From the NCBI GenBank assembly GCA_000999095.1, contig LCFP01000003.1, positions 93,437 through 157,436 on the forward strand: 64,000 bases of DNA, read 5' to 3'. The translations under genes and the position numbers were made by a program. Under the pieces are notes generated by a model. It worked only from the letters and a program-made list of their open reading frames with translations. It was not told the origin of the DNA and did not search any database. Within the stretch, counting starts at the first letter, position 1, and every line of letters begins with the position of its first letter. This DNA is from Candidatus Gottesmanbacteria bacterium GW2011_GWA2_43_14 (GTDB taxonomy: Bacteria; Patescibacteriota; Microgenomatia; 2-02-FULL-39-11). Below are positions 4,693-64,000 of the stretch, piece by piece.

Positions 4693-4954
4693 CGCTCACC
4701 TCCGTCAGTGTCCAGAAAAGGGTTTCGGTGTCGAACTCCAGTTTGAAAGCCAGGGAATTGTTGCAGACGGAGAAAATATGCAGGAGTTTTTTGCCTTGTT
4801 TGACTTTGTGGTGGTAGCCGATTTTCTCAATGGTATAAAGGCGGCCCTGCCATTTGATTTTCCTGGGGGTAACCGTCCTTTTTTCCCGGTCAAAGACCGT
4901 CACCACGCTGACTTTCTCGTTGATTTTCTCGTTCATAAAAATGCCCGTCCCCAA
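4676..4954 (-). CDS. small hypothetical protein between lexA and the Y-family polymerase
   Basis: 92-aa ORF overlapping the polymerase start, consistent with translational coupling. I recognise no family. By position it could be an accessory subunit, which is inference. Confidence 0.4.
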   Translation of the reverse strand: MGTGIFMNEKINEKVSVVTVFDREKRTVTPRKIKWQGRLYTIEKIGYHHKVKQGKKLLHIFSVCNNSLAFKLEFDTETLFWTLTEVSDGLAS

Positions 4955-4961
4955 GCGGAAT

Positions 4962-5534
4962 TCAGTGATATTTCCGGACTACAGAGATAACGATGCCGAA
5001 GAGAGTAAGATTTTCCGCAGGGAAGAGGGGCGAATATTTGCTGTTGCCCGGCGCCAGAAAGACCAGATTGTCCCTTTTGCGGAAATATTTCAGGGTGAAT
5101 TCGCCGTCGATTGAAGCCACCACGATGTCGCCCTCTTTGGGTTCACGGTCCTTTTCCACGATAACCACGTCTCCTTCCTGGATGCCGGCCTCGATCATGG
5201 AATCGCCGGAAACCCGCAAAAGATATGATTTTTCCGGTTTGGCCACCAGGTAATCGTCAAAGGAAACCGAGGACAGGATCTGTTCGTCGGCAGCCGTCGG
5301 GCTGCCGGCACGGATGATGCCTAAAACCGGCAGGGAAGGCAGGAGGCGGTCGGGAATGAGCCTGCCTTTATCGTCTTTGCCCAGAATGCCGGCTTCGATG
5401 AGTTTGGCCGCCAGCTTAAAACTGGCATGTTTGGAGGCAAAACCGAAAAGGCGGCACATTTCCTGATAAGAGGGGAGCCGTTTGTTTTTGCGGAAAAAGC
5501 GGCGGATTTTTTGGGTGGCAGACTCGATGTCCAT
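4962..5534 (-). CDS. lexA: LexA repressor (S24 peptidase)
   Basis: N-terminal wHTH, Ala-Gly cleavage site (IRAGSP), VSGDSMIEAGIQEGD (catalytic Ser) and TLKYFRKRD (catalytic Lys). 190 aa. Confidence 0.8.
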   Translation of the reverse strand: MDIESATQKIRRFFRKNKRLPSYQEMCRLFGFASKHASFKLAAKLIEAGILGKDDKGRLIPDRLLPSLPVLGIIRAGSPTAADEQILSSVSFDDYLVAKPEKSYLLRVSGDSMIEAGIQEGDVVIVEKDREPKEGDIVVASIDGEFTLKYFRKRDNLVFLAPGNSKYSPLFPAENLTLFGIVISVVRKYH

Positions 5535-22037: not shown

Positions 22038-22525
22038 AAATGCTCTTTCTTCAGAAGATCCGCAATCCGTGATGATGACAGGGATTTATTGAAGGGCAAG
22101 ACTTTCAATTGGCCACCGCTTTTTTCCGCCTGGCTTTTTTTGAGATCAAGCAAAGGATCATTGTCGGTTGCGGCGATCACATCAGGCTCCAGCCTTCTGA
22201 TTAACTCATCGTAACCGGCATCCGATTCAATAAGAGGCAACATGACAATAAAAGCTACCGAAGTCAGTGAGGCTAGCATTTCCGCCCGCTCTTTTTGGGA
22301 AAAGACAGGCCTGAGCTCGCCTTTCAGAAGTCTCACTTTTTCATCCGGTTCCAGTAAAATGAACACTCTGCCTCCCAATTTTTCCGCTGAACGGATGAAT
22401 TTGATATGTCCCGGGTGGAGAATGTCAAAACAGCCGCCGACGACAGTAACTACAGTCCGACTTTTCTTATAGGATTTAATTATCGCTTCTGCTTTTTTAA
22501 CTGAAATTATTTTGTTAACCGGCAT
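22034..22525 (-). CDS. cytidylyltransferase-family nucleotidyltransferase (HldE domain-II-like, ADP-heptose-synthase-like)
   Basis: VVGGCFDILHPGHIKFI (HxGH), LEPDEKVRLLKG and RPVFSQKERAEMLASL parallel the RfaE/HldE adenylyltransferase domain. Confidence 0.55.
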   Translation of the reverse strand: MPVNKIISVKKAEAIIKSYKKSRTVVTVVGGCFDILHPGHIKFIRSAEKLGGRVFILLEPDEKVRLLKGELRPVFSQKERAEMLASLTSVAFIVMLPLIESDAGYDELIRRLEPDVIAATDNDPLLDLKKSQAEKSGGQLKVLPFNKSLSSSRIADLLKKEHL

Positions 22526-22554
22526 GTGTCTAGCTATATCACACCTGGTGTGTG
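22524..22554. repeat. REP-like palindromic element copy 1 (ATGTGTCTAGCTATATCACACCTGGTGTGtgc)
   Basis: Read directly. Its 3' arm is degenerate. It sits in the 35-bp gap between two minus-strand genes. Confidence 0.6.
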
Positions 22555-22559
22555 CAGAA

Positions 22560-30408: not shown

Positions 30409-30441
30409 ATGTGTCTAGCTATATCACCCCCGGGGTGATAC
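30409..30441. repeat. REP-like palindromic element copy 2 with compensatory stem changes (…TATCACCCC-C-GGGGTGATAC)
   Basis: Read directly. It overlaps the last 6 codons and the stop of the minus-strand MraY-like gene. Confidence 0.6.
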
Positions 30442-51143: not shown

Positions 51144-51824
51144 ATGGTAAAGAAAGACCTTTTGATTGCCGGCAATTGGAAATGCAATAAAACAAAAGAT
51201 CAGGCGGCTGATTTTTTCCGGGTTTTTTCGGATAAAATCAAAGAAGCCGATAAACCCCCTAACGTTGAAGCGGTGATCTTTCCGTCCCTTATTCATCTCG
51301 ATTTGGCCAATGAGTTGGTGAAAAAATTAAGTCTTCCCATTCAGCTGGGGGCGCAAAATATCTCGGCTTTTCCCGAAGGGGCTTTTACCGGAGAAGTGGC
51401 GGCCGGCCAACTCAAAGAAGTGGCGCAATATGTTTTGATCGGGCATTCGGAAAGAAGAATCAACCAAAAAGAAGATGACAGGCTTTTAGCGGAAAAAGCG
51501 GCCAGAGCCAGGGAAGCCGGTTTAAAAATAATCTATTGCGTCTCCCAGTTATCTGACAATTTGGCTGATGTGGCGGATGTGATCGCTTATGAACCCGTCT
51601 GGGCAATCGGGACCGGCAAGGCTGCCACGCCCGAAGACGCTGAAGAGAAAGCACGCGCCATCAAAAACCGACAACCGAAGGTGAAAGTACTGTATGGAGG
51701 CAGCGTCAGTCCGGAAAATATCAGGGACTTTCTGAAAATGCCCTCAGTCGACGGAGTGCTCCCCGGCAAAACGAGTTTGGACCCGGCCCTTTTTTACAGC
51801 ATGCTGAAAAATGCCGCCTTTTAA
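51144..51824 (+). CDS. tpiA: triose-phosphate isomerase
   Basis: LIAGNWKCNKT, IGHSERR, AYEPVWAIGTGKAAT and YGGSV. Confidence 0.9.
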   Translation: MVKKDLLIAGNWKCNKTKDQAADFFRVFSDKIKEADKPPNVEAVIFPSLIHLDLANELVKKLSLPIQLGAQNISAFPEGAFTGEVAAGQLKEVAQYVLIGHSERRINQKEDDRLLAEKAARAREAGLKIIYCVSQLSDNLADVADVIAYEPVWAIGTGKAATPEDAEEKARAIKNRQPKVKVLYGGSVSPENIRDFLKMPSVDGVLPGKTSLDPALFYSMLKNAAF

Positions 51825-52905
51825 AAGAAAGCTTTTGAAGTTTAAGAAACCTCTCCTTACCGTCTTTTTGGCGGCAATTGCCTTGGGCTTTTTATATTTT
51901 TCGCTGAAAGTCTACCTGCCTATATATTCTTTCAGCAAAACCAACGGCCTTAATTTTAAGACAGCCGTGAATCTTTTAACTGACAAGAAGGGTAGCCTTT
52001 TAAAAAAAACGGACGGGAGGACAAATATTCTTCTTTTAGGCATAAGCGGAGGTAAACACGAAGGCGCGGAGCTGACAGACTCCATAATTTTTCTGAGTAT
52101 CCATCCGGAAAATAAAGATAATGTGATGATTTCAATTCCGAGGGATATTTGGCTGCCGTCTTTAAAAACAAAAATAAACTCCACCTACTATTACGGCGAA
52201 TCCAAAAGAACAGGCGGGGGCATGACCCTGACCAAAAGCGCCGTTTCCGAAGTTTTCGGCCAGCCTGTCCATTATGCGGTCCTGATCGATTTTGCCACGT
52301 TCAGGGATGTCATTGATTCTTTGGGCGGTATCGATGTTTATGTTGAATCGGCTTTTGAGGATAAGAAATTTCCCATTCCGGGCAAGGAAAATGATTTTTG
52401 CGGAGGTGACTCAGAATATAAATGCCGCTATGAATCCATAAGTTTCGGTCAGGGTTGGCAACATCTGGACGGGGACAAAGCCCTGAAATTCGTCCGTTCC
52501 AGAAATGCCGAGAACGGTGAGGGTAATGATTTCTCCAGAGGACGCCGGCAGCAGTTGGTTCTCAAGGCGGTAGCTCAAAAAATAAGAAAATCGCTGTCTT
52601 TCAACAATCTCAACCGGGCAAAAGAACTGTCTCAGGACCTGACTGAAGCCATTGATACCGACCTTAACATTTCCGAAATGCTGTTTTTGGGAAAATACCT
52701 GATGGAGGAAGGTGCTGACGAATTCCGGCAGATAAGGCTCGACACGGGAGACGATCAGAAAAATATCAAAGGCATTCTGGAAAATCCCCCGACCTGGCAA
52801 TATGACGGACAATGGGTATTAGTCCCCAAAGACACCGATTACGATAAATTTGAAGAGTACCTAGACTGCCACCTGGACAGCCCCGGCTGCAAACTGGAAC
52901 CCTGA
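51811..52905 (+). CDS. LytR-CpsA-Psr (LCP) family cell-wall polymer transferase
   Basis: TM anchor, NILLLGISGG, DSIIFLSIHP, ISIPRDIWL and GDKALKFVRSRN. Confidence 0.8.
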   Translation: MPPFKRKLLKFKKPLLTVFLAAIALGFLYFSLKVYLPIYSFSKTNGLNFKTAVNLLTDKKGSLLKKTDGRTNILLLGISGGKHEGAELTDSIIFLSIHPENKDNVMISIPRDIWLPSLKTKINSTYYYGESKRTGGGMTLTKSAVSEVFGQPVHYAVLIDFATFRDVIDSLGGIDVYVESAFEDKKFPIPGKENDFCGGDSEYKCRYESISFGQGWQHLDGDKALKFVRSRNAENGEGNDFSRGRRQQLVLKAVAQKIRKSLSFNNLNRAKELSQDLTEAIDTDLNISEMLFLGKYLMEEGADEFRQIRLDTGDDQKNIKGILENPPTWQYDGQWVLVPKDTDYDKFEEYLDCHLDSPGCKLEP

Positions 52906-52910
52906 CCGGG

Positions 52911-52942
52911 ATGTGTCTAGCTGTATCACACCTGGTGTGATA
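52911..52942. repeat. REP-like palindromic element copy 3 (ATGTGTCTAGCTGTATCACACCTGGTGTGATAT)
   Basis: Read directly. It lies 5 nt after the LCP stop and upstream of the RAYT-like gene. Confidence 0.65.
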
Positions 52943-52945
52943 TAG

Positions 52946-52975
52946 ATTGACACGTTCCGGAAATTATTTCATATT
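52946..52975 (+). promoter_or_regulatory. candidate promoter for the RAYT-like gene (TTGACA-17-CATATT)
   Basis: TTGACA at 52946-52951, a 17-nt spacer, then CATATT. A GTG start follows at 52982. Confidence 0.3.
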
Positions 52976-52981
52976 AAAAGT

Positions 52982-53656
52982 GTGACAACCAGAAAACTGC
53001 CAATAGTTACCAGCGAGATATACCACATATTTAACAGAAGTGTAGGGCAGCAACCGATATTCAGGAATATCTATGAAAATAAACTGTTTGTCGAACTAAT
53101 CGAATACTATCATTTTTTTCATACCAATCTCCGTTTTTCTTACTACAACCGTTTGCCGAAGGATCAAAGAGATAAGATTTTAAAAGACCTGTACATTAAG
53201 AAGTTATTCAATATTGAAATATATTCTTTTTCTCTTATGCCAAACCACTTTCATCTATTGGCAATGCAAAAATCTGAAAAAGGCATAAGTAACTTTGTCA
53301 GATGTCTTCAAGACAGTTATGCAAAATATTTCAATATGAAAAATAAAAGAGAAGGCGCTTTATTTCAGTCACCGTTTAAAAGTGTCAGAATGGAAACTGA
53401 AGAACAACTTTTACATGTTTCCAGATATATACATCTCAATCCTTTGACATCTTATGTTTTAAGAAATAAAGAAGATTTAATTAATTATCAATGGAATTCG
53501 TTCAGAGATTATGTCAGTGCTTCTCCAAGACGCTTTATAAAAACAAATCTGATTAGTTCATTTTTTAATAAGAACAATAGTTTTGAGGAATTTACTTTTA
53601 ACCAACTGGATTATCAGAGAAAATTAAAAATGGTGAAACACCTGATTTTGGAATGA
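52982..53656 (+). CDS. REP-associated tyrosine transposase (RAYT) / IS200-like HUH transposase
   Basis: HUH motif in SLMPNHFHLLAMQ, and a catalytic-Tyr block VSRYIHLNPLTSYV (YIHxNP). AT-rich versus flanks, and flanked on both sides by the palindromic element. Confidence 0.65.
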   Translation: MTTRKLPIVTSEIYHIFNRSVGQQPIFRNIYENKLFVELIEYYHFFHTNLRFSYYNRLPKDQRDKILKDLYIKKLFNIEIYSFSLMPNHFHLLAMQKSEKGISNFVRCLQDSYAKYFNMKNKREGALFQSPFKSVRMETEEQLLHVSRYIHLNPLTSYVLRNKEDLINYQWNSFRDYVSASPRRFIKTNLISSFFNKNNSFEEFTFNQLDYQRKLKMVKHLILE

Positions 53657-53662
53657 TCCCGG

Positions 53663-53695
53663 ATGTGTCTAGCTGTATCACACCTGGTGTGATAC
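53663..53695. repeat. REP-like palindromic element copy 4
   Basis: ATGTGTCTAGCTGTATCACACCTGGTGTGATAC. It shares the G variant with copy 3. Confidence 0.65.
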
Positions 53696-53701
53696 GGATG
53701 A

Positions 53702-55090
53702 TTAGAGTTTGAGGAGGAATTTGGAGCCGACTAATAGCAGGGTCAGCCCGCTGCCTAAAAGAAAACCCGTAAAGGTAGTGACTCCTGATCTTGGCGGCAG
53801 ATCGATCTGCCCTGCCCCGGTAGGAGTCGGGGGTTCCGGCGTCGGGGTTGGCGTTTCAGTCGGCGTCGGTGACGGTGTCGGCGTTTCAGTCGGCGTCGGG
53901 GTTTCAGTAACCTCAACCTCCTCCGCGGGGGTTGCGGATGGGGGAGTATCTGTGGGAGTTTCCGAAGCTGACGGTGTAGCGTCTCCAAGAACAGCTTCAC
54001 CGCTTTTTAATACAGCGAACTTCCGGCTCAATGTTGTCGGCCGTCCGTATTTGTCCGTGCTTTGGATGCGGATTTCGTGAATGCCCGGTTCCAGGGCTTT
54101 TTTCGGGCGGAAACTCCAGGTACCGTCAGCTCCGACAGTCAAAGAAACGGTCTGCGGAGTGGACATAACGGTAACCGTTATTTTCTCGCCGGGAATACCG
54201 ACCCCCCGCAAAACCGGTTGGCGGTCGGCTGTGGCATCCATTTCCGACCTGGGGAAATAAAAACCGACACCGTTTTCCGGAATTTGGGCTGGTTTGCGGG
54301 CTGTTTCCCGGCCTAAAATTACGGAAGATTTATTTTCAGGGCTGTTTGGTAAAAAATTATACCTCTTGCCGATCTGCATGTCCGGCAGCATTCCCTGTTT
54401 CACGGTCGCCAGATCAGTCACGGCTGATGAATAATCCCGGCTGTTTTCCTTTACGGTGATCTGGATCTGCGAGCTGTCGTCAAGATAAGGCCTGGAGAGA
54501 AAGTCCTGGGTCCTCAGATTGTTTAAGGGAATTACCCACATGCCCAGCCGGTCGCTCCAGGCGGATAACGGGCTGGCCTGTCCGACCAACAGATAAACAA
54601 GCAAATTTTCCGCCGGACTGCCATCTCTTGCGAGTATCCTGCCTTTGACAGGCGGCAGTTCCAAAGAAGCCGGTAAGGGCACGCCCGTTTTTTGCACAAA
54701 CTCGGGACATTTTTCCCTGAAAGGACAACCGCTTCCTCCGGAGAATATTTTCAATGTGTATTCCCGGTCGGCATGCAAATTTTTTACCGAAAAAACATGC
54801 TGCGTTCGCTCCCGGGGATTGCCGTCGCTGTCCCGTTCATCGAGAAGGGAAGTCCTGACGCCTTCTCCGCTGACGGACACTGAAGTAATAACCGCTTTTT
54901 CCGTCAGGAAGGAAAGAGAAAGCGAATTGTCCGTTATATTGGTAATGTGAACGTCAGCCGGCGAAGGCAGGTCTTCGGCATTGGTGGTGAGCTGTTTGAA
55001 TGTGCCGTCGAAATAGACGGTTAAGCCTATACCGGCGAACAAAATGAACAGGGCTAGAAGTGTGGGAATTTTTCTTTGTTTACGGTACAT
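53702..55090 (-). CDS. cell-surface protein with Ig/FN3-like domains, Thr/Pro-rich linker and C-terminal hydrophobic anchor
   Basis: N-terminal signal/anchor. TPTPTETPTPSPTPTETPTPTPEPPTPT linker, then DLPPRSG + hydrophobic segment + KFLLKL, which resembles a sorting-signal/anchor architecture. Confidence 0.45.
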   Translation of the reverse strand: MYRKQRKIPTLLALFILFAGIGLTVYFDGTFKQLTTNAEDLPSPADVHITNITDNSLSLSFLTEKAVITSVSVSGEGVRTSLLDERDSDGNPRERTQHVFSVKNLHADREYTLKIFSGGSGCPFREKCPEFVQKTGVPLPASLELPPVKGRILARDGSPAENLLVYLLVGQASPLSAWSDRLGMWVIPLNNLRTQDFLSRPYLDDSSQIQITVKENSRDYSSAVTDLATVKQGMLPDMQIGKRYNFLPNSPENKSSVILGRETARKPAQIPENGVGFYFPRSEMDATADRQPVLRGVGIPGEKITVTVMSTPQTVSLTVGADGTWSFRPKKALEPGIHEIRIQSTDKYGRPTTLSRKFAVLKSGEAVLGDATPSASETPTDTPPSATPAEEVEVTETPTPTETPTPSPTPTETPTPTPEPPTPTGAGQIDLPPRSGVTTFTGFLLGSGLTLLLVGSKFLLKL

Positions 55091-55283
55091 AATTGATTTC
55101 CCTTCTGCCCTGGAGCTGGCCTATGATTGTCATGTCAAAATTGGGAGTTAGAGCTTCAGTTTTTTTAGCTTCGGCCAGGCCGGTTGTATCACTGTATTTG
55201 GCATGATAAACGCCGAAAACGACCCAGGCAACTACCGTCGAAAAGGTAATAATGGCCAATATGTAAAGTTCTTTACGGTTCAT
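55080..55283 (-). CDS. small single-TM protein
   Basis: 67 aa with one TM helix. Overlaps both neighbours by 4-11 nt. Confidence 0.3.
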   Translation of the reverse strand: MNRKELYILAIITFSTVVAWVVFGVYHAKYSDTTGLAEAKKTEALTPNFDMTIIGQLQGRREINYVP

Positions 55284-55935
55284 AATATGCAGAGCCTTTG
55301 GCGGTAATTCTTAATATGCCGCTTGATGTCCCGCCTTCATGGGCTATATCCAATGATTCCAGCGTGATTATGCGCTGCCAATTGAGTATATCATCCAGGT
55401 AGTTTTTGATATTTTCATATGAGCCGTTTCCGATGAGTATAAAGTTCATTTTCTGAAGTTTTTGTTTTTCACTGAGGGTAGAAATCGGGGCGGAGTCTAT
55501 TTGCAGCTGGTTGATATTAAAACCGTTGGCCAGCGCAGATTCTTCCAAACCGCGGGAAAGCGAGGTGAAATCGGCATTTCGCGGTAAAGCCAGGTCAATC
55601 AGCGAGATGCCGTCCCTGACTTTTTCATATTCACTTTGGGCTCTGATAATTAAACTTATCTGGTTTTCATAATCCAGATTCCGGTTTTTAAGATCATTGA
55701 CTTCTTTGATCAGGGAAACTGCCGTTATCAGAGTCGGCCGGATGGCAAACAGGCCGAAAAATGACAGGCAAAAAAGAGATAAAGTAATCGTGAAATAGGA
55801 TGCCGTTTTACTGTTTTTCAAAACAGGTTTAAATCTCTGGCGAGTTTTTATCAGGAGGTTGTTTTTTGCGTCAAATAAGGACATATCGTTTTTTTTAAAC
55901 TTTCCTGGCAAGGTTTGCCTGGACCCTGAATTCAA
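55273..55935 (-). CDS. PilO-like pilus assembly protein
   Basis: Short cytoplasmic N-terminus, one TM, coiled-coil, then an alpha/beta periplasmic-type domain. Lies downstream of the PilN-like gene. Confidence 0.4.
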   Translation of the reverse strand: MNSGSRQTLPGKFKKNDMSLFDAKNNLLIKTRQRFKPVLKNSKTASYFTITLSLFCLSFFGLFAIRPTLITAVSLIKEVNDLKNRNLDYENQISLIIRAQSEYEKVRDGISLIDLALPRNADFTSLSRGLEESALANGFNINQLQIDSAPISTLSEKQKLQKMNFILIGNGSYENIKNYLDDILNWQRIITLESLDIAHEGGTSSGILRITAKGSAYYEP

Positions 55936-56458
55936 CTTTGCCGTCGGGAAGCCTTTTCAAATCTTCCAGTTGGACATCCGAGAAGATCTCGTCTTCCTGG
56001 ATATTTTTTAATAGGACATTAAAACTGGTCAGACTGTCGGAAACTGCCGTAAATCTGACTTTTGATTTGCTGAATGAGAGGAGGTTGAAGTTCGTATCAG
56101 CCGGAGTTTTGTTTTCCAGAAAATTTATTGTCTGAAGGATAGCATCGTAATTCCCGGTGATGCTTTTAATATCGGCCAGGCTTTTTTGGACCCTGATGAT
56201 TTCATTGTTCACTTCGGCAATGGAGCCGACTAAGGCTTCTTTTTGTCCGACTGATTCCTTCAGGTCAGTCCGATCGCGGTCAAGCTTGAACCTTCCGAAA
56301 AAGACCGACAGGACGACAATCTGGATGATGATAATAATATAGCGGCCGTAAGTCAGAGCCCAATTGAGGAATTGGGAAGACAGGCTTTCTTCCTTGGCCT
56401 TTTGGACAAGCAGGTTAATTTCCGTTTTGCTTTTTTTACTTTGTCCCATACAAAACAA
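55895..56458 (-). CDS. PilN-like pilus assembly protein
   Basis: N-terminal EINLLVQK (the INLLP-type PilM-binding motif), TM, then coiled-coil. Confidence 0.5.
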   Translation of the reverse strand: MFCMGQSKKSKTEINLLVQKAKEESLSSQFLNWALTYGRYIIIIIQIVVLSVFFGRFKLDRDRTDLKESVGQKEALVGSIAEVNNEIIRVQKSLADIKSITGNYDAILQTINFLENKTPADTNFNLLSFSKSKVRFTAVSDSLTSFNVLLKNIQEDEIFSDVQLEDLKRLPDGKVEFRVQANLARKV

Positions 56459-56537
56459 AAGGATGGTTAAATCCTTAAATGCGATCTACTTATCCATTAT
56501 ACAGAAAATCAGAAACGGGAAAACTGGGAGAAAGGAA

Positions 56538-56828
56538 TTACTTCTTTTTCCCGGGTTTGGCGGCCGGAGGGCTTTTTTTAACTGCCGGAGTTTTCTTTTT
56601 CAGCAGTTTTGACAGGTTTGACTTCAAGCGGGATGATTTGTTGTCATGATAGATTTTTTTCTTGCTTGCTTGGTCCAACAGGCTGGCTGCCTTATTATAA
56701 AGCTTTTCCGAAGGATTCTCCCTGTATAATTTGATGGCTTCTTTGACCTTGTTTTTGACAACAAGATTTACGGACCGTCTTTTAACGTCCTGCCTGAGTT
56801 TTTTTTCCGCTGATCTGGTGATAGGCAT
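56538..56828 (-). CDS. rpsT: 30S ribosomal protein S20
   Basis: MPITRSAEKKLRQDVKRRSVN is a bS20-like N-terminus. Basic, 96 aa. Confidence 0.8.
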   Translation of the reverse strand: MPITRSAEKKLRQDVKRRSVNLVVKNKVKEAIKLYRENPSEKLYNKAASLLDQASKKKIYHDNKSSRLKSNLSKLLKKKTPAVKKSPPAAKPGKKK

Positions 56829-56846
56829 GATTTACGTAGTATACTA

Positions 56847-58517
56847 GTGGAACTTGCAATGGTCAAGCTGATTAAAAACACTCTGACTATTCTGACGCGC
56901 CAGGAGAAGAACATACTGTCGGCGGCTTCGGTCATTATGACGGCTGTCGCTGTCTCCCGGCTTTTGGGTCTTTTCAGGGACAGGCTTCTGGCTGCCCGCT
57001 TTTCCCCGGAAGATTTGGGAGTTTATTACGCTGCTTTCCGGCTGCCCAACATGATTTTCGAGCTTTTGGTCATGGGAGCTTTGGCAACCGCTTTTATTCC
57101 GGTTTTTACTTCCTTTCTGGATAACAAAAGCAAGGAAGAAGCCAACAGACTGGCTTCCTCGGTCATCAATATCGGCCTGGTACTTTTTCTTTTTCTGGCT
57201 TTGCCTTTAATGATTTTTACTCCCTTCATCTCCCGTAAGCTGGCGCCGGGTTTTGACGAGAATCAAATCAGGCTGATGGTCGCATTTACCAGGATCATGA
57301 TTATTCCCCAGGTTTTTCCCCTGATTATAGGCAACTTTCTGACGGGCATCCTCCAGTCATACCGGAATTTTCTGATACCCGCCCTGGCGCCTGTCGTCTA
57401 TAACGTCGGCATTATTTTAGGCATTCTTTTTTTGACACCTGCGGCCGGACTGTACGCTCCGGTTGTCGGAGTGGTTTTCGGAGCATTGCTGTTTGTTTTA
57501 ATCCAAATTCCGTCCATTCTTTCATACGGATACCGCCACAAATTAAGTTTTGATTACAAAAACAAGGGTGTCAGGACAATCGGCAAACTGATGCTGCCGC
57601 GTACCCTTGGCCTGGCTGTTTCCCAAATCGATACCACCGTTGATCTGGTTTTGTCTACCCTTTTGGGCGCCTCGGCCGTTACTGTTTTTAATTTTGCCCA
57701 GCATTTGCAGCAGCTTCCGATAGGGCTTTTCGGTGTCAGTATTTCCCAGGCCTCGCTGCCGGCTTTGTCATCAGCCGCCGCCAGAGATGATAAACCCGAA
57801 TTCAAAAAAATATTACTTTCATCTTTCCATCAGATTCTTTTTCTGGTCCTGCCGGTTTCCTTTATACTGATTGTTTTGAGGATTCCCGTCGTCAGGCTTG
57901 TTTTCGGCGCATCAACTCTGTTTGACTGGGAATCAACCGTACTGACGGGCCTGACCCTGGCATATTTTTCGGTCTCCCTGTTCGCCCAATCCCTGGTTCA
58001 TCTTCTTGCCCGCGGATTTTACGCCCTGCAGGACACGAAAACTCCGGTTGTCATCGGCTTTGCGGCTGTCTTGACCAACGCAGCCTTATCAGTCCTGTTT
58101 GTAATGGTTTATCATCTGCCAATCTGGTCACTGGGATTTTCGGCCTCTGTGGCCAGTATATTGAATATGTTTCTGCTTTTGGTCTTTCTGATCAGAAAGG
58201 TAGGCAGTTTCGGCTACCATGAACTTCTCTACCCGATGTTCAAAATCTTTCTGGCAGGACTGGTGGCTGCTTTTGCCCTCTATATTCCCATCAAAGTCCT
58301 AGACCAGCTGGTTTTTGACACGACCCGCACCATCAACCTCTTTTTTCTGACAGGTATTTCCACTTTTATCGGATTGGCGGTCTATCTTTTTATCGCCTGG
58401 TTTTTGGATGTGCCCCAGATAGCAATCATCTTCAAAATTTTCCAAAGGCTCAAGCCCAGGGAGAAGGGTGTCCTTCTGGATACCACCCAGGAAGTGGTCA
58501 ATTTGCAGGAGAACTGA
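56847..58517 (+). CDS. murJ: lipid II flippase MurJ (MviN)
   Basis: 14 predicted TM segments, with LGLFRDRLLAARF and FGVSISQASLP blocks typical of MurJ. Confidence 0.8.
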   Translation: MELAMVKLIKNTLTILTRQEKNILSAASVIMTAVAVSRLLGLFRDRLLAARFSPEDLGVYYAAFRLPNMIFELLVMGALATAFIPVFTSFLDNKSKEEANRLASSVINIGLVLFLFLALPLMIFTPFISRKLAPGFDENQIRLMVAFTRIMIIPQVFPLIIGNFLTGILQSYRNFLIPALAPVVYNVGIILGILFLTPAAGLYAPVVGVVFGALLFVLIQIPSILSYGYRHKLSFDYKNKGVRTIGKLMLPRTLGLAVSQIDTTVDLVLSTLLGASAVTVFNFAQHLQQLPIGLFGVSISQASLPALSSAAARDDKPEFKKILLSSFHQILFLVLPVSFILIVLRIPVVRLVFGASTLFDWESTVLTGLTLAYFSVSLFAQSLVHLLARGFYALQDTKTPVVIGFAAVLTNAALSVLFVMVYHLPIWSLGFSASVASILNMFLLLVFLIRKVGSFGYHELLYPMFKIFLAGLVAAFALYIPIKVLDQLVFDTTRTINLFFLTGISTFIGLAVYLFIAWFLDVPQIAIIFKIFQRLKPREKGVLLDTTQEVVNLQEN

Positions 58518-58530
58518 ATTGCCATCCCGA

Positions 58531-58563
58531 ATGTGTCTAGCTATATCACACCTGGTGTGATAC
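58531..58563. repeat. REP-like palindromic element copy 5
   Basis: ATGTGTCTAGCTATATCACACCTGGTGTGATAC, in the convergent gap between murJ and the glycosidase gene. Confidence 0.65.
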
Positions 58564-58575
58564 AAGATACAAGAG

Positions 58576-60501
58576 TTAGAGGGTGACGGCTCCGTTGAAG
58601 CTTCTGGTGACGACTGGCTTGCCGTCATAAATTATTGAGAGGTTGTCGATGGCTCCGGGAAAGGGAAAGACGGACAAACGTGAGGCGGATCCCAGGGCAA
58701 GGGACGGGTCTAGACTCTTTTCGCTTAAGTTTCCGTCAACAGAAAGGGAAAATTTATCATAAGACCGGCGTAAAGTGACTCTGTGCCAGTCGCTTTGATT
58801 TTTCCAACCCATTATTTCCCGGGCCAGGATTTCCGTTTTTTGCCCGTCATAGACTGACATCGTCAAAAAATCGATTGTTTTGGAGGTGCGTTTCTCCAGG
58901 CTGATTTTAACAGGAGGGTTTTCTCCCTGGGTAAATTCCAGTTCCAGCAAAAGGACGGGTTTGTCGTCGTCCGGCCAAAGCGGTTTGAGCCAAAAGTCCA
59001 GTTGGGTTTCCGCGGCTTCCATCCCGGGCAGCAGCAAAACCAGCGGTTCTGTCTGGCCGAGGAAGGAAAGGGCCAAATCCGCACCCCCTTCTACCCCCTG
59101 GATAAACTGGGCCAAGCCGCTTATCCTGGAAAGGGAGATGTGGACAACCGCATCGGGCAACAGAACGAAATTTTTGCTGATAGTGCCGTCCAGCGATGTT
59201 ATCAGGGAATTGGCATCGGTATCCCTGAGCACATCTTTTGCCTTCAGGCGGTAATATCCCGGTTCCAAGCCGCTTAAGATTACGGGTACATTCTCCAGAT
59301 TTTTTTCCGCCAGGTCGTAGTTGACCAGGAGAATGCCGATGTCACCGTTGTCCTTCTTTGCTGCCATTGCTTTAACAAAAGTGCCTTCCCCGGCGATTTT
59401 TAATTTTCTGCCGGAAATCCGCGAAAGGGTCATAAAAACACGGTAACGGCTTTTGACTTCCAGAGGATTGGTGCTTTTTTCATGCGTAATCAGGCCCCAT
59501 TTGCCGCCGTCAGGCGGCGGGCCGTCTTTGACTTCAAAATTGAAAACTGCTTCAGCCCTATTGCCCAATTGCGCTACAACTGCTGCCGCATGGGCTGCCG
59601 CCTTGTTGCCTTGGCTCATTTCATTTTTTTCCGAATCTATACCCCACTCGCTGATGACGAGGGGCAGAGACGAAAGATTGGGATAAAGGGAGAGGATTTC
59701 CCGTGTTTTTTCAAGGTCGCGGCGGAATACCAGGGGATCCTGGTGGTAACGGTGAAAGGAGTAGAAATCCAGGCGGGCTTTTCCTTCCGAAGCTATTTTT
59801 GCCATGGCTTCGATCCATTTGGGATAGTATGAGCCGACAGCCGGACCGCCGAAGTAAAAAGGATTGGCCCCGCTTACGGCTGCAGCGCCGCGGGCGGCGG
59901 AGATATAGAGATCAGCGTAGCTTTTAGAGCCGGCCGGTGTAAATTTGCCAAAACCGGGCAGTTCCGGTTCATTCCAGACTTCATAATAGACGCCGGCCAG
60001 ATTGCGGAAATCCTTTCCCGAGTAGTGCAGGACCGTTTCCTTAACCAGGTTTTCCCACAACAGCCAATCCGACGGTTTATCGATGACCGAACCTGTTGCG
60101 GTAAACTCAGCAGGCATATATGACAGGCTGAAAAAAGGTTTGGCGCCCATCTCCAGAATCCGGTCAACCGTTTCGTCTAAAAGGGTGAAATCGAAAACCA
60201 GCCCTTGAGCAGTTTTTTTGACCACCCGGTAGCGGTCATAAATGTGGTCGATCCTGATGTAGCGGGGGGAAAGCGGTTTCATAAGCCCGGTCACATTGTC
60301 AAACATGGGCGGCGGCTCTTCGCCGCCCTGGGCGAAATTGGCCCAGCTGTTTTTGATATCGCCGTCTGTGTTTTTTACATCGATTGCGATATTGGCGGGT
60401 ACGGAAGCGGCCCTGCCGATCAAAGACAAAACATCATCCGAGTATAAGAGAAGCAGGGGAATCAGGATAAACAAAACAAGAGGCAGCAGTTTTTTCAGCA
60501 T
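58576..60501 (-). CDS. secreted clan GH-A glycoside hydrolase with C-terminal beta-sandwich domain
   Basis: VYYEVWNEPE (the NEP acid/base motif of GH5/GH39-type TIM barrels). N-terminal signal/TM. Start taken at MLKKLLPL; the ORF track extends to 60552 across the CIRCE. Confidence 0.5.
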   Translation of the reverse strand: MLKKLLPLVLFILIPLLLLYSDDVLSLIGRAASVPANIAIDVKNTDGDIKNSWANFAQGGEEPPPMFDNVTGLMKPLSPRYIRIDHIYDRYRVVKKTAQGLVFDFTLLDETVDRILEMGAKPFFSLSYMPAEFTATGSVIDKPSDWLLWENLVKETVLHYSGKDFRNLAGVYYEVWNEPELPGFGKFTPAGSKSYADLYISAARGAAAVSGANPFYFGGPAVGSYYPKWIEAMAKIASEGKARLDFYSFHRYHQDPLVFRRDLEKTREILSLYPNLSSLPLVISEWGIDSEKNEMSQGNKAAAHAAAVVAQLGNRAEAVFNFEVKDGPPPDGGKWGLITHEKSTNPLEVKSRYRVFMTLSRISGRKLKIAGEGTFVKAMAAKKDNGDIGILLVNYDLAEKNLENVPVILSGLEPGYYRLKAKDVLRDTDANSLITSLDGTISKNFVLLPDAVVHISLSRISGLAQFIQGVEGGADLALSFLGQTEPLVLLLPGMEAAETQLDFWLKPLWPDDDKPVLLLELEFTQGENPPVKISLEKRTSKTIDFLTMSVYDGQKTEILAREIMGWKNQSDWHRVTLRRSYDKFSLSVDGNLSEKSLDPSLALGSASRLSVFPFPGAIDNLSIIYDGKPVVTRSFNGAVTL

Positions 60502-60541
60502 TAATTTGATCTTAACAGGAATTTCCACGGCTTGACAAACC

Positions 60542-60568
60542 TTAGCAGTCATGATATCTTAGTGCTAA
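60542..60568 (+). promoter_or_regulatory. CIRCE operator (TTAGCAGTC-N9-TAGTGCTAA) upstream of hrcA-grpE-dnaK
   Basis: One mismatch per arm to TTAGCACTC-N9-GAGTGCTAA. It lies 5 nt upstream of the hrcA ATG. Confidence 0.6.
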
Positions 60569-60573
60569 TTTGT

Positions 60574-61305
60574 ATGGTTGATCTTACCGACAGACAGCTC
60601 CATATCCTCAAGGTAATCATCGAGGAATATATTGATACTGCCATGCCGGTAGCCTCGGAGACTTTGGACAAAAAATACAACCTGGGCGTTTCCCCGGCTA
60701 CCATCCGCAATGAAATGGTCAGACTGACGACATCCGGTTATCTTAAACAGCCGCATACATCAGCCGGGCGAACCCCGACCCCTCTGGCTTTAAAATTCTA
60801 TGTCGATCGTTTAATGAAGCCCAAGGAATTGTCCGTATCGGACGAAGTTTCCGTCAAACAGAATATCTGGGACCACAGAAAGGAAATGGACGAGCTTTTG
60901 CGCGAAGCGACCAGAACTTTGGCTAAGCAGAGTAAAACCCTGTCCCTGGCAGCCACCGATGAGGGAGATTTTTTCACCTCCGGTATCGGCAATATTCTCG
61001 AGATGCCTGAATTTTACGACATAGACATCACCAAGCATCTTTTGGACACTTTGGATGAGGCCGAGTACTGGTGGAAAATACTTTCCGGCTATTCCGATCA
61101 GGATGAAAGCCTCTATATTCTGGTGGGTGAAGAGTTCGGGGGCAATCTCCTCAACAATTGCGGCGGCATCTTCGTCAGTTTCCGGTCTGCCGAACACAAA
61201 GGGGCTATCGGAGTTGTGGGGCCGACCAGGCTGAATTATTCCAGGCTGGTTCCGGTCGTGCGCTATATGGGCAGTCTCATCAATGATCTGGCCAAAAATC
61301 TGTAA
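60574..61305 (+). CDS. hrcA: heat-inducible transcription repressor HrcA (short form)
   Basis: LTDRQLHILKVIIEEYIDTAMPVASETL...SPATIRNEM is the wHTH of HrcA. TAATG-coupled to grpE. Confidence 0.8.
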   Translation: MVDLTDRQLHILKVIIEEYIDTAMPVASETLDKKYNLGVSPATIRNEMVRLTTSGYLKQPHTSAGRTPTPLALKFYVDRLMKPKELSVSDEVSVKQNIWDHRKEMDELLREATRTLAKQSKTLSLAATDEGDFFTSGIGNILEMPEFYDIDITKHLLDTLDEAEYWWKILSGYSDQDESLYILVGEEFGGNLLNNCGGIFVSFRSAEHKGAIGVVGPTRLNYSRLVPVVRYMGSLINDLAKNL

Positions 61306-61745
61306 TGCAAATGAAGAAAGACGACATAAAAAAAGAAAATCTAAAGGAAGAGATTGAAAGCTGGAAAAATAAATATTTAAGAGCCCTGGCTGATTACCAG
61401 AACCTAGAGAGGCGAATCAGTGAAAACAGGCTGGAGGAAAGAAAACAGGCGGCTACTGAATTTGTTCTTAAATTTCTGCCTGTTTTGGACGATTTGCTGC
61501 ATGCTCAAAGGGATTTGGAGAACCCCGGCTTGAATCTTATCCTGAAAAAAGCCGATGACATTTTAAAATCGGAAAACATCGAAAAAATCGGGACCAAGGA
61601 TAAGGAATTTGATCCTCACCTGATGGAATGCGTGGAACTGGCAGAGAGTGAAGCGGACAACAGGGTTGTAAAAGAAGTCCGGCCGGGTTACCGCCGGGGA
61701 GATAAGATTTTGAGGGCTGCCCGGGTGGTCGTCGGACAGATCTGA
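61305..61745 (+). CDS. grpE: nucleotide exchange factor GrpE
   Basis: [21 protein letters not shown], and the C-terminal beta domain [19 protein letters not shown]. Confidence 0.85.
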
Positions 61746-61804
61746 AAACAGCCGGTGTAAATGAAGCTCACCAGCAGCGAGGCCGAAACGTCATCCCGTC
61801 AGTT

Positions 61805-63607
61805 GTGGATCCCGTCAAACGGATCGTCGGTGACGTGGCCAAACGCCAGATGATCATCAATCCCAAATCGACTGTCTTTTCCATTAAACGCCTGATGGGC
61901 AGGAAATTCAACGACAAATCGGTCCAGAAGGACATGAAATGGCTGCCTTATACCATCAAGGCCGGACGCGACAACATGGCGGTTGTCGAGGTCGAAGGCA
62001 AAACTTATACGCCCCAGGAAATTTCCGCCCAGATTTTGCAGAAGATCAAAGCCGACGCGGAAAGCTATTTGGGTGATAAAGTCACCGAAGCAGTCATCAC
62101 CGTCCCGGCTTATTTTGACGATGCCCAAAGGCAGGCCACCAAACAGGCGGGCGAGATTGCCGGGCTGATCGTCAAAAGGATTATTAACGAGCCGACGGCG
62201 GCAGCTTTGGCATATGGTCTCGATAAAAAACATTCCCATACAGTAGCAGTTTACGATTTGGGAGGCGGCACTTTTGATATTTCCGTTTTGGAGCTTGGTG
62301 AAGGCGTTTATGAAGTCAAAGCCACCAACGGCGATACGCATCTTGGAGGAGACGACTTTGATCAGGTCATCCTGGATTATATTGCTGAGGAATTTAAGAA
62401 AGAACAGAATGTCGATCTCAGGAAAGACCCGCAGGCACTGCAGAGATTGAGGGATGCTGCCGAGAAAGCCAAGATAGAACTGTCGACCTCGATTGTGGCC
62501 GATATCAATCTGCCGTTTATCACCCAGGGTAAGGAAGGGCCTCTTCACCTGGTGCAGAAACTCACCAGGGCCAAGCTGGAAACAATTGTGGGGGAACTGA
62601 TTGATAAGACAATCCCTCCGGTTGAGGCCTGCCTGAAGGATGCCGGCATCGACAAAAGCAAAATCGATGAAATTGTTTTAGTCGGCGGCATGACCAGAAT
62701 GCCGAGAGTCCTTGCCAAAGTCAAGGAATTTTTCGGAAAAGAGCCGAATAAAAGCGTCAATCCTGATGAAGTGGTGGCCATAGGCGCGGCTGTCCAGGCC
62801 GGTGTTTTGACAGGTGAAGTCAAGGATGTGGTTTTGCTGGATGTTACGCCTTTGACTTTGGGCGTTGAGACGCTAGGCGGAGTTTCCACTCCATTGATTA
62901 CCAGGAATACGACCGTCCCGACGAGCAAAAGCGAAGTTTTCTCGACGGCTGCCGATAACCAGACTTCGGTCGAGATAAATATTCTGCAGGGAGAAAGGCC
63001 GATGGCGGCAGACAATAAATCATTGGGCCGCATTATTCTCGACGGCATCCCGCCGGCACCCAGGGGGGTGCCCCAGGTCGAAGTCAATTTTGACATAGAT
63101 GCCAACGGCATCCTCAATGTCTCGGCCAAGGACAAGGCGACCGGAAAAAGCCAAAGCATCAGGATCACTTCCTCGACAGGCCTGTCGCAGGATGAAATCG
63201 AAAAAATGACCAAGGAAGCGGAAGCCCACTCCAAAGAGGATCAGGAGAAAAAAGACAAAATTGAGACCCGCAACAAGGCAGACAATATGATTTATGTGGC
63301 GGAAAAATCCCTAAAGGACGCGGAAGGCAAAGTTGGTGATGACGTAAAAAAAGAGGTTGAGGAAAAAATCAGCGCCCTCAAAGGCATTCTGGAGAGCGGC
63401 GGTAAAGAAGAACTGGAAAGTAAAACCAAAGACCTTTCCGATTCGCTGTCGAAAATCGGCCAGGCCATGTACCAGGGCCAGCAAACTCAGCCTCCTTCGG
63501 CTGACCAGCCGCCTTCCGGAGATAATAAAGAGGACAAAAACGGGGAAAAGAAGAAAGGCAAGAAAAAAGACAAGGAAGATGTCCAGGAAGGCGAAGTAGT
63601 CTCGTAA
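61805..63607 (+). CDS. dnaK: chaperone DnaK (Hsp70), lacking the canonical N-terminal ~25-45 residues
   Basis: [64 protein letters not shown] and LVGGMTRMP. The first available start is GTG at 61805. The IGIDLGTTNS phosphate-1 motif has no coding space. Confidence 0.85.
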
Positions 63608-64000
63608 TGGTACCAATCGGAAAAAAAATCAATCTCACGGCAGAACTGTTTGCCGTTTGCGATTATACATTGATCTCCCGGGACGGAAAAATCTCGATCA
63701 TCGGCATCTTTGACCGGATCGGGTCGGTTAATTTTCCGACCGTCCATCCGAAGATGGTTCTGGCGGCAGTACTGCGGGGAGAGAAAAACAGCAAGTTGAT
63801 AATTTCCCTTGAAGTGATCAGTCCTGCCGGAAGAGAAGTGCTAAAGGAGCAGAATAAAACCATCCAAATTCAATTAACGCTTAGTCCATTCGGAAAAGGC
63901 AACTTAATAATTGATTTAGTGACTTTCCGTTTTGATACCGAAGGGGAATACCGTTTCATCCTGAAACATGATAATAAAATTTTTGCCCAGACTTCCGTTA
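63607..64000 (+). CDS. hypothetical protein (N-terminal 131 aa; continues past the window end)
   Basis: I translated from the ATG overlapping the dnaK stop (TAATG): [39 protein letters not shown]... It is not DnaJ-like, since no J-domain is present. Absent from the ORF track because there is no in-window stop. Confidence 0.35.
   Translation, partial: MVPIGKKINLTAELFAVCDYTLISRDGKISIIGIFDRIGSVNFPTVHPKMVLAAVLRGEKNSKLIISLEVISPAGREVLKEQNKTIQIQLTLSPFGKGNLIIDLVTFRFDTEGEYRFILKHDNKIFAQTSV

What the first reader, a model, noticed from the sequence alone, without database searches (positions are those of the whole stretch)
61703..61900. dnaK is 5'-truncated: no coding space for the Hsp70 phosphate-1 motif, and DnaK-like codons run in-frame into the grpE 3' end
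The grpE stop is at 61743-61745. In the dnaK frame, the sequence upstream of the GTG at 61805 still translates to DnaK-like residues (…[16 protein letters not shown], compare …ENAEGARTTPSVVAF). That frame contains no ATG/GTG/TTG between the in-frame stop at 61703-61705 and 61805, and it overlaps grpE. The IGIDLGTTNS beta-hairpin encoded by the first ~25 codons of every functional Hsp70 is therefore absent. Possible explanations are a ~100-bp deletion, a pseudogenised or N-terminally shortened DnaK, or an assembly/consensus error at this position.
Basis: partly seen in the sequence, partly recalled or inferred. Interest (0 to 1): 0.55.

Follow-up and report, generated by a model that had tools for sequence, protein, structure and literature searches.

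The report
Foreign 41-base patch truncates dnaK record
The dnaK gene looks 5'-truncated in this record only because 147 native bases were replaced by a 41-base fragment of a Burkholderiales gene; other assemblies of the same population carry a normal, full-length dnaK, so this is most likely a consensus-level chimera and not a new kind of Hsp70.

Summary
grpE stops at 61743-61745, the first possible dnaK start is GTG 61805, and the 600-aa ORF lacks Hsp70 profile positions 1-42, including IGIDLGTTNS.

It is not a simple deletion, and it is not a lineage feature. The window comes from Ca. Gottesmanbacteria GW2011_GWA2_43_14. Seven other assemblies of the same population have flanks 99.8-100% identical. 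They carry 147 native bases at this spot: the grpE tail, the Shine-Dalgarno site, the ATG and dnaK codons 1-31, giving a 639-aa DnaK. The window has 41 bases there instead (61739-61779).

Those 41 bases match exactly the antisense strand of a SCO1/SenC gene found in Burkholderiales MAGs and 11 metagenome contigs. The left junction lies in a 17(+2)-nt microhomology. The right junction is blunt.

Two other assemblies break 11 nt from the junction. One k=31 Logan assembly (SRR29904086) reproduces the patch, so patch-bearing molecules probably existed in reads.

Best reading (0.6): a rare chimeric molecule or misjoin was promoted into the consensus at a weak spot. Main rival (0.25): a real recombinant dnaK-null allele. 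Interest is low.

The parts
60532..61305 (+). hrcA, the first gene of the hrcA-grpE-dnaK-(DUF6941)-dnaJ heat-shock operon (context).
   Evidence: ORF. Pfam HrcA on the called gene. 100% identical in other assemblies.
61305..61745 (+). grpE as it stands in this record (146 aa). It is native up to 61738. Its last two codons and the TGA stop come from the patch. The intact allele encodes 158 aa ending ...[22 protein letters not shown].
   Evidence: Pfam GrpE E=1.6e-31.
61718..61738 (+). Microhomology block TGCCCGGGTGGTCGTCGGACA. This is native grpE 3' sequence that also occurs in the donor gene: 17-18 nt exact, then one mismatch, then CA. The left junction of the patch lies at its end.
   Evidence: Alignment of the window, the intact allele and 13 donor sequences. 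The chance of a 17-nt match at a fixed position is about 6e-11.
61739..61779 (.). Foreign 41-nt patch GATCTGAAAACAGCCGGTGTAAATGAAGCTCACCAGCAGCG. It matches the antisense strand of a Burkholderiales-type SCO1/SenC gene (sense strand codes ...[14 protein letters not shown]...). It replaces 147 native nt: the grpE tail, the SD site, the ATG and dnaK codons 1-31.
   Evidence: replacement. (36-nt core exact in 11 metagenome contigs and 2 Burkholderiales MAGs). (41/41 identical in L011 and L013). (SCO1-SenC Pfam, E=3e-11).
61780..61804 (+). Native dnaK sequence resumes here (codons 32-39, GRNVIPSV). It lies upstream of the annotated start and has no start codon or ribosome-binding site.
61805..63607 (+). 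Annotated dnaK ORF (GTG start, 600 aa; GenBank KKS98238.1). It is 100% identical to residues 40-639 of the intact DnaK P0002.

Best explanation
The truncation is a property of this consensus sequence. It is not a property of the organism's usual gene. The population of Ca. Gottesmanbacteria GW2011_GWA2_43_14 has a normal grpE-dnaK junction and a 639-aa DnaK.

In this record, 147 native bases are replaced by 41 bases copied from the antisense strand of a Burkholderiales SCO1/SenC gene.

The most likely sequence of events is as follows.
1. A DNA strand ending in the grpE 3' sequence ...GCCCGGGTGGTCGTCGGACA paired with the near-identical stretch of the foreign gene.
2. It was extended for 41 nt on that template.
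3. It was then joined, without homology, to dnaK codon 32.
4. This gave one or a few chimeric molecules in the sequencing library. They could be a rare cellular variant or a library chimera.
5. The true path is weak at this exact place. It is AT-rich, the genome has roughly 14x coverage, and two other assemblies break 11 nt away.
6. Assemblers needing long k-mers (IDBA-UD with mink 40 plus ra2.py curation; Logan/Minia with k=31) therefore took the chimeric bridge. MEGAHIT runs starting at k=21 took the true path.

What is shown: the replacement, the donor, the microhomology, the intact allele elsewhere, the breaks in other assemblies, and the chimera-only k-mers.

What is inferred: the low abundance of the patch, the weak coverage, and that all the long-contig assemblies come from the same read set (GWA2 = SAMN03202995 = SRR1658344).

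If this allele exists in cells, it would make no working DnaK. It has no SD site, no start codon and no phosphate-1 loop.
For: The intact junction, with 99.8-100% identical flanks, is present in L002, L003, L017, L018, L019, L020 and L021. These represent four assembly pipelines and at least four samples.

About 56 kb of the window was compared with independent assemblies. It shows no other structural difference.

The patch core is exact in 13 foreign sequences, and all are in a SCO1/SenC context.

The left junction has 17(+2) nt of microhomology and the right junction is blunt.

The JGI contig L026 and the ENA k141 contig L027 both end at ...GGACAAAAAGAGAAAT. The JGI contig L003 starts at AAGAGAAAT.... 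The true path is therefore fragile within 11 nt of the patch.

The replaced segment begins with 75 nt of 31% GC. At 14x coverage with 150-nt reads, about 0.6, 1.4 and 3.3 random gaps per Mb are expected for minimum overlaps of 21, 31 and 40 nt.

The GW2011 assemblies used IDBA-UD with mink 40 and ra2.py (PMC5220378). Unsupported local errors are reported as common in IDBA-UD assemblies, for example 13 in a 1.13-Mb genome (PMC7111523).

The organism gives long contigs in only one sample of each assembly series, and all of those carry the intact allele.
Against: A Logan contig from run SRR29904086 (L001, 9,055 bp, bounded by REP repeats at both ends) carries the identical patch with no fork. Logan uses k=31 and discards k-mers seen only once (PMC12424806). 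Fifty-five 31-mers across the two junctions occur in neither the native nor any donor sequence. Patch-bearing reads must therefore exist in that run and must outweigh the intact path there. If that run is a different sample, the patch allele is abundant somewhere, and that favours the rival explanation.

A two-junction chimera within 41 nt is unusual for library artefacts. No de Bruijn mechanism can create the blunt right junction without a read that contains it.

The identity of SRR29904086, and the equation GWA2 = SAMN03202995, could not be checked.
Confidence: 0.6

Rival explanations
1. The patch is a real recombinant allele carried by a substantial subpopulation. DNA from a neighbouring Burkholderiales entered a Gottesmanbacteria cell. 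It then served as a short template or patch in illegitimate recombination or break repair. A native 3' end primed at the 17(+2)-nt microhomology, 41 nt were copied, and the end was joined without homology. This removed the grpE tail, the SD site, the start codon and dnaK codons 1-31, giving a dnaK-null lineage. That lineage dominated at least one sequenced sample.
For: The patch is reproduced in a read-based k=31 assembly of another SRA run. That contig has no fork at the site and is bounded only by repeats. The junction anatomy fits primer-type microhomology use: long microhomology on one side, the native A kept at the mismatch, and a blunt join on the other. The patch size lies within the 3 to about 100 bp range of SPDIR microindels, which can use foreign DNA taken up by transformation (bioRxiv 10.1101/2023.11.22.568220). 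The window encodes type IV pilus-type genes (T2SSE, T2SSF, PilN/PilO, N_methyl pilin), which fits a capacity for DNA uptake.
Against: No JGI or ENA assembly of the twelve GW2011 samples in the collections carries the patch. All four long-contig assemblies of the population have the intact allele. The allele destroys a near-universal chaperone gene. Such events are extremely rare in the one organism where they were measured (about 1e-13 per cell and locus). The right junction has no convincing microhomology.
Confidence: 0.25
2. The patch is a purely computational error. IDBA-UD scaffolding or ra2.py re-assembly built it with no read containing it, and the Logan run is not independent of the GenBank record (for example, reads simulated from deposited genomes).
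For: Local assembly errors unsupported by any read are described as frequent in IDBA-UD assemblies (PMC7111523). The site is one where other assemblers fail. The Logan contig is a clean single haplotype, broken only at REP repeats, and is 100% identical to the record.
Against: IDBA-UD was run with mink 40, so a 17-21-nt shared stretch cannot link the two genomes. The right junction shares no k-mer at all, even at k=12. The sister run SRR29904083 is so large that its DNA could not be fetched, which suggests a deep real metagenome. This genome was not found in the GTDB representative set that was scanned.
Confidence: 0.12
3. This lineage has a genuinely N-terminally shortened DnaK that is expressed from GTG 61805 and is functional.
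For: The 600-aa frame is open and otherwise perfectly conserved.
Against: The same strain has the full-length gene elsewhere. The listed relatives are full length, apart from one entry named 'partial' and one near-full 585-aa entry. There is no SD site before the GTG. Residues equivalent to E. coli DnaK 1-39 are missing, including the phosphate-1 loop that binds ATP and Mg2+; this is established Hsp70/actin-fold knowledge. The upstream sequence is foreign.
Confidence: 0.01

Closest known systems
Local assembly errors and chimeric consensus in short-read metagenome-assembled genomes (IDBA-UD / ra2.py curation; Chen et al. 2020, PMC7111523)
   Same: It is a single short stretch of consensus that disagrees with other assemblies of the same population. 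It sits at a spot where assemblers break, and it damages gene calls in a deposited MAG.
   Different: The stretch is an exact copy of a gene fragment from another phylum, with a microhomology junction. It also reappears in a k=31 read-based assembly, so at least some reads probably contain it. Typical local errors have no read support.
[quoted passage not shown] 2016; bioRxiv 10.1101/2023.11.22.568220)
   Same: A short heterologous patch (41 nt) replaces a short native stretch (147 nt). The donor is identifiable foreign DNA. The crossover lies at an extended microhomology containing one mismatch.
   Different: Only one of the two joints has microhomology. An in vivo origin is not shown. SPDIR has been demonstrated only in laboratory Acinetobacter baylyi.
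Canonical bacterial hrcA-grpE-dnaK-dnaJ operon and DnaK (Hsp70, PF00012)
   Same: Gene order and sequence are ordinary. From residue 40 onward the protein is a standard DnaK, 75-90% identical to the other DnaKs listed, most of those that carry a name being Gottesmanbacteria.
   Different: In this record the SD site, the start codon and the first 31 codons (phosphate-1 motif) are gone. A DUF6941 gene sits between dnaK and dnaJ.

Membership tests
Functional DnaK/Hsp70 | Full HSP70 domain, including the N-terminal phosphate-1 motif (I/V)DLGTTNS | tested here: not met
   The window ORF matches Pfam HSP70 positions 43-599 only. The intact allele P0002 matches 1-599 and starts MAKIIGIDLGTTNS.
Functional DnaK/Hsp70 | A usable translation start (start codon with a Shine-Dalgarno site) | tested here: not met
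   There is no ATG, GTG or TTG in frame from 61706 to 61804. No SD site precedes GTG 61805. The intact allele has the SD AGGAG 9 nt before its ATG (sequence AAAGGAGAAATAAA then ATG).
Functional DnaK/Hsp70 | Location in the hrcA-grpE-dnaK-dnaJ heat-shock operon | tested here: met
   Gene order with Pfam labels.
Assembly or consensus chimera | The disputed stretch is absent from independent assemblies of the same population | tested here: inconclusive
   It is absent from seven JGI and ENA assemblies. It is present in one Logan assembly of run SRR29904086.
Assembly or consensus chimera | The disputed stretch belongs to another organism in the community | tested here: met
   It is 41/41 identical to SCO1/SenC antisense in L011 and L013. 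The core is exact in 11 metagenome contigs and 2 Burkholderiales MAGs.
Assembly or consensus chimera | No read, or only very few reads, support the junctions | not testable with these tools
The k=31, count >= 2 rule of Logan argues that at least two read occurrences exist in SRR29904086.
De Bruijn graph misjoin through a shared repeat | A shared k-mer of at least k-1 bases at each junction | tested here: not met
   The left junction shares 17-21 nt, which is less than 39 (IDBA-UD mink 40) and less than 30 (Logan). The right junction shares nothing, even at k=12.
SPDIR-type microindel | A short patch (3 to about 100 bp) of ectopic or foreign origin replaces native sequence | tested here: met
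   41 nt replace 147 nt and the donor is identified.
SPDIR-type microindel | Microhomology or extended microhomology at both crossover joints | tested here: inconclusive
   The left joint has 17 nt, one mismatch, then 2 nt. The right joint has 0-1 nt. A GCGG...GCCG similarity lies 2 nt out of register and could be chance.
SPDIR-type microindel | It arose in a living cell and is inherited | not testable with these tools
   This needs read-level allele frequencies across samples, or PCR on archived DNA.

The most novel reading that the evidence does not exclude
The patch is a genuine in vivo event. A candidate-phyla-radiation bacterium took up DNA from a co-resident Burkholderiales and incorporated 41 nt of it by microhomology-primed illegitimate recombination (SPDIR-like, or templated break repair). 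This knocked out dnaK in a lineage that reached detectable abundance in the aquifer. It would be a natural, donor-resolved example of a mutation class so far shown only in the laboratory. It would also be direct evidence of cross-phylum DNA uptake by an ultra-small episymbiont.
Probability: 0.3. Interest if true: 0.55.

Novelty: not a real feature. Interest (0 to 1): 0.2.

Why it matters
There are two practical consequences. First, GenBank KKS98238.1 (DnaK, 600 aa) and KKS98237.1 (GrpE, 144 aa), and their UniRef entries, misrepresent the organism. Anyone inferring a missing or aberrant Hsp70 in this CPR genome would be misled. The correct sequences are the 639-aa DnaK and the 158-aa GrpE recovered here. 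Second, this is a clean worked example of how a foreign fragment can enter a curated MAG at a weak-coverage spot, and of how cross-assembly comparison exposes it.

Only if read mapping showed the patch to be an abundant real allele would it gain biological interest. It would then be a natural short-patch illegitimate recombination with foreign DNA in a CPR bacterium, and a naturally occurring dnaK-null lineage.

Tried and rejected
1. A second dnaK, or a displaced N-terminal exon, within the window. tblastn with E. coli, B. subtilis and a consensus N-terminus found nothing.
2. A frameshift that hides the N-terminus. None of the three frames upstream of 61781 encodes IGIDLGTTNS.
3. A simple deletion. 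This is rejected because 41 unrelated bases fill the gap.
4. The patch as an inverted or duplicated piece of nearby sequence. There is no other copy in the window with up to 3 mismatches, and no local repeats in 61500-62000.
5. A mobile element or prophage inserted at the break site seen in other assemblies. Two scans of viral contigs for the flanks found nothing. The GrpE 90% cluster holds only the intact and patch forms. The 9-mer AAGAGAAAT is not enriched in the window. The cause of the break stays open; the candidates are a coverage gap and a polymorphic insertion.
6. Tracing SRR29904086, SRR1658344 and SAMN03202995 in the literature. There were no hits for these accessions.
7. Other Logan runs carrying this locus. 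Only SRR29904086 and SRR29904083 were found, and the latter contig ends inside grpE.
8. Other discrepancies between this record and independent assemblies. None was found over about 56 kb apart from 3 SNPs against one assembly.

Full report
**What is in the window.** Positions 60532-63607 hold a heat-shock operon.
- hrcA lies at 60532-61305.
- grpE lies at 61305-61745 and encodes 146 aa, with TGA at 61743-61745.
- A DnaK-like ORF follows. Its first possible start is GTG 61805, and it runs to 63607 (600 aa).
- A DUF6941 gene and dnaJ come next.

In the dnaK frame there is a TAA at 61703-61705 and no ATG, GTG or TTG until 61805. Pfam HSP70 matches profile positions 43-599 of 599. E. coli DnaK aligns only from residue 32, at window 61781. 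No N-terminal DnaK fragment lies elsewhere in the 64 kb. No Shine-Dalgarno sequence precedes the GTG.

**Source and relatives.** The ORF is identical to GenBank KKS98238.1 from Candidatus Gottesmanbacteria bacterium GW2011_GWA2_43_14, on a 181,511-bp contig. The 120 best homologues listed are almost all 625-648 aa. The two shorter ones are a 576-aa entry named 'partial' and a 585-aa entry covering 98% of the query. One protein, P0002 (639 aa, from JGI and ENA assemblies), is 100% identical over all 600 residues. It begins [40 protein letters not shown], as do the three next relatives whose sequences were read (88-89% identical).

**The difference at DNA level.**
- L002 is a 169-kb ENA scaffold from BioSample SAMN03202995. 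It is 100.000% identical to window 51794-61738 and 61780-64000.
- Between those two blocks, L002 has 147 nt and the window has 41 nt at 61739-61779.
- The 147 nt encode the last residues of GrpE (...VVVGQKEKFKKVVPEEGK*), the ribosome-binding site (AAAGGAGAAATAAA, followed directly by ATG) and dnaK codons 1-31.
- The intact junction is also present in L003, L017, L018, L019, L020 and L021. These are JGI 3300025308, ENA assemblies of SAMN03202998 and SAMN03202999, ERZ27254729 and ERZ27254739, and SRR1658465.
- A 182,015-bp MEGAHIT contig from SRR1658344 (ERZ978281) appears to carry the intact allele too. This is read from the contig lengths on record for P0002, not from its junction sequence, which was not fetched.
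- The rest of the window (2870-24558 and 29794-64000) is collinear with independent assemblies. There are no indels and at most 3 SNPs.

The grpE-dnaK junction is the only structural discrepancy in about 56 kb.

**What the 41 bases are.**
- Their 36-nt core occurs exactly in 11 JGI metagenome contigs and in two Burkholderiales MAGs.
- It is always inside the same gene, on the antisense strand.
- That gene encodes ...[27 protein letters not shown]... and matches Pfam SCO1/SenC (E=3e-11). It sits next to a large membrane-protein ORF that I did not identify with any search.
- All 41 nt are identical in L011 and L013.

Only GRNVIPSVV is DnaK. A 14-codon stretch without a stop has a chance probability of about 0.5.

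**Junction anatomy.** The native grpE 3' end TGCCCGGGTGGTCGTCGGACA (61718-61738) is nearly identical to the donor sequence just before the patch, (c/t)GCCCGGGTGGTCGTCGGGCAGA(t/c)CTG. That is 17-18 nt exact, one mismatch at which the window keeps the native A, and then CA. A 17-nt match at a fixed place has a chance probability of about 6e-11, so the similarity guided the join. At the right junction (61779|61780) there is essentially no shared sequence. The only similarity, GCGG...GCCG, is 2 nt out of register.

**Can an assembler have invented it?**
- The GW2011 data were assembled with IDBA-UD (mink 40, maxk 100), and local scaffolding errors were corrected with ra2.py (PMC5220378).
- A shared stretch of 17-21 nt cannot connect two genomes at k of 40 or more.
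- The right junction shares no k-mer with either parent, even at k=12.
- At k=31, 55 k-mers are specific to the chimera.
- The same patch, with 100% identical flanks, is present in a Logan contig from run SRR29904086: L001, 9,055 bp, with both ends inside copies of a REP-like repeat.
- Logan builds k=31 unitigs, discards k-mers seen only once, and simplifies the graph with Minia3 (PMC12424806).

Unless that run is not an independent read set, reads containing both junctions exist.

**Why it may still be only a consensus artefact.** Several points argue that the patch is rare.
- No JGI or ENA assembly of the twelve GW2011 samples (SAMN03202994-3005; PMC4742961) has the patch.
- The organism gives long contigs (137-182 kb) in exactly one sample of each assembly series. 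All of these carry the intact allele.
- That sample is probably the GWA2 library from which the GenBank genome was built. This is an inference.
- Two of those assemblies break at the same base inside the intact allele. L026 (JGI) and L027 (ENA, k141) end with ...GGACAAAAAGAGAAAT, 11 nt past the patch's left junction. The JGI contig L003 starts with AAGAGAAAT..., so the two ends overlap by 9 nt.
- The replaced segment starts with 75 nt of 31% GC.
- By the naming convention as I know it, the genome name suffix "_43_14" indicates about 14x coverage. At 14x with 150-nt reads, about 0.6, 1.4 and 3.3 random gaps per Mb are expected for minimum overlaps of 21, 31 and 40 nt.

A weak spot in the true path explains two things. 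It explains why MEGAHIT, which starts at k=21, passes through, while assemblers that need longer k-mers break or take an alternative bridge. It also explains why a rare chimeric molecule was promoted to consensus exactly here: such molecules only matter where the true path fails. The Banfield group reports that local assembly errors are common in IDBA-UD assemblies, for example 13 in a 1.13-Mb genome (PMC7111523).

**Verdict on mechanism.** My best explanation (0.6) is that one or a few chimeric molecules were present in the library. They were formed by priming at the microhomology, 41 nt of copying on the Burkholderiales template, and a homology-free rejoin at dnaK codon 32. Some assemblers then chose this bridge because the true path is weak. 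I cannot tell whether those molecules came from a rare cell lineage or from library preparation.

The main rival (0.25) is a real recombinant allele that is abundant in at least one sample, as the clean Logan contig suggests. Its anatomy resembles short-patch double illegitimate recombination, which can use foreign DNA (bioRxiv 10.1101/2023.11.22.568220). However, only one joint shows microhomology.

A purely computational origin with a non-independent Logan run gets 0.12. A functional short DnaK gets about 0.01.

**Consequences.** If the patch allele exists in cells, it has no SD site, no start codon and no phosphate-1 loop (E. coli DnaK residues 1-31, including D8 and T11-N13; established Hsp70 knowledge). 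It would therefore be a dnaK null. GrpE would probably still work, because only its non-conserved tail is changed. For the organism as a whole, dnaK is ordinary. The deposited DnaK and GrpE entries should be treated as erroneous or unrepresentative.

Noticed in passing
Intact allele, L002 9946-9956, equivalent to window 61739 (contig ends of L026, L027 and L003): Two independent assemblies (JGI metaSPAdes and ENA MEGAHIT k141) end at the same base, ...GGACAAAAAGAGAAAT. The adjoining JGI contig starts at AAGAGAAAT..., which gives a 9-nt overlap. This could be a chance coverage gap in a roughly 14x genome. It could also be the graph signature of a polymorphic insertion with a 9-bp target duplication in the grpE tail.
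   Followed up: partly
window 22524-22555, 30409-30440, 52911-52942, 53663-53694, 58531-58562: A REP-like palindromic repeat, ATGTGTCTAGCT(G/A)TATCACACCTGGTGTGATA, has 5 copies in the window, against 0 expected. Two copies flank a Y1 (IS200/IS605-type) transposase gene at about 52982-53656, an arrangement resembling a REP-associated tyrosine transposase (RAYT). Both ends of the Logan contig L001 fall inside such repeats.
   Followed up: partly
L017 1-278 (joins at window 59906): The SPIRE scaffold from SAMN03202999 has 278 nt of unrelated sequence joined inside the GH39 gene. This is another chimeric or variant join, in a low-coverage assembly of the same population.
   Followed up: partly
window 63605-64000: A DUF6941 gene sits between dnaK and dnaJ. 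Its ATG overlaps the dnaK stop (GTAATGG), which suggests translational coupling to dnaK. Its role in the chaperone operon is unknown.
   Followed up: no
window about 3427-5500 (L022 19025-21132): An S24 peptidase (LexA/UmuD-like) gene lies close to a Y-family polymerase (IMS) gene, an arrangement like an SOS-mutagenesis cassette. Toxin-antitoxin genes (MazE, PIN) lie nearby.
   Followed up: no
window 29794-52739 versus L023: There are three single-base differences between this record and the MEGAHIT contig from SRR1658344. The JGI assembly agrees with the window at all of the positions it covers.
   Followed up: no
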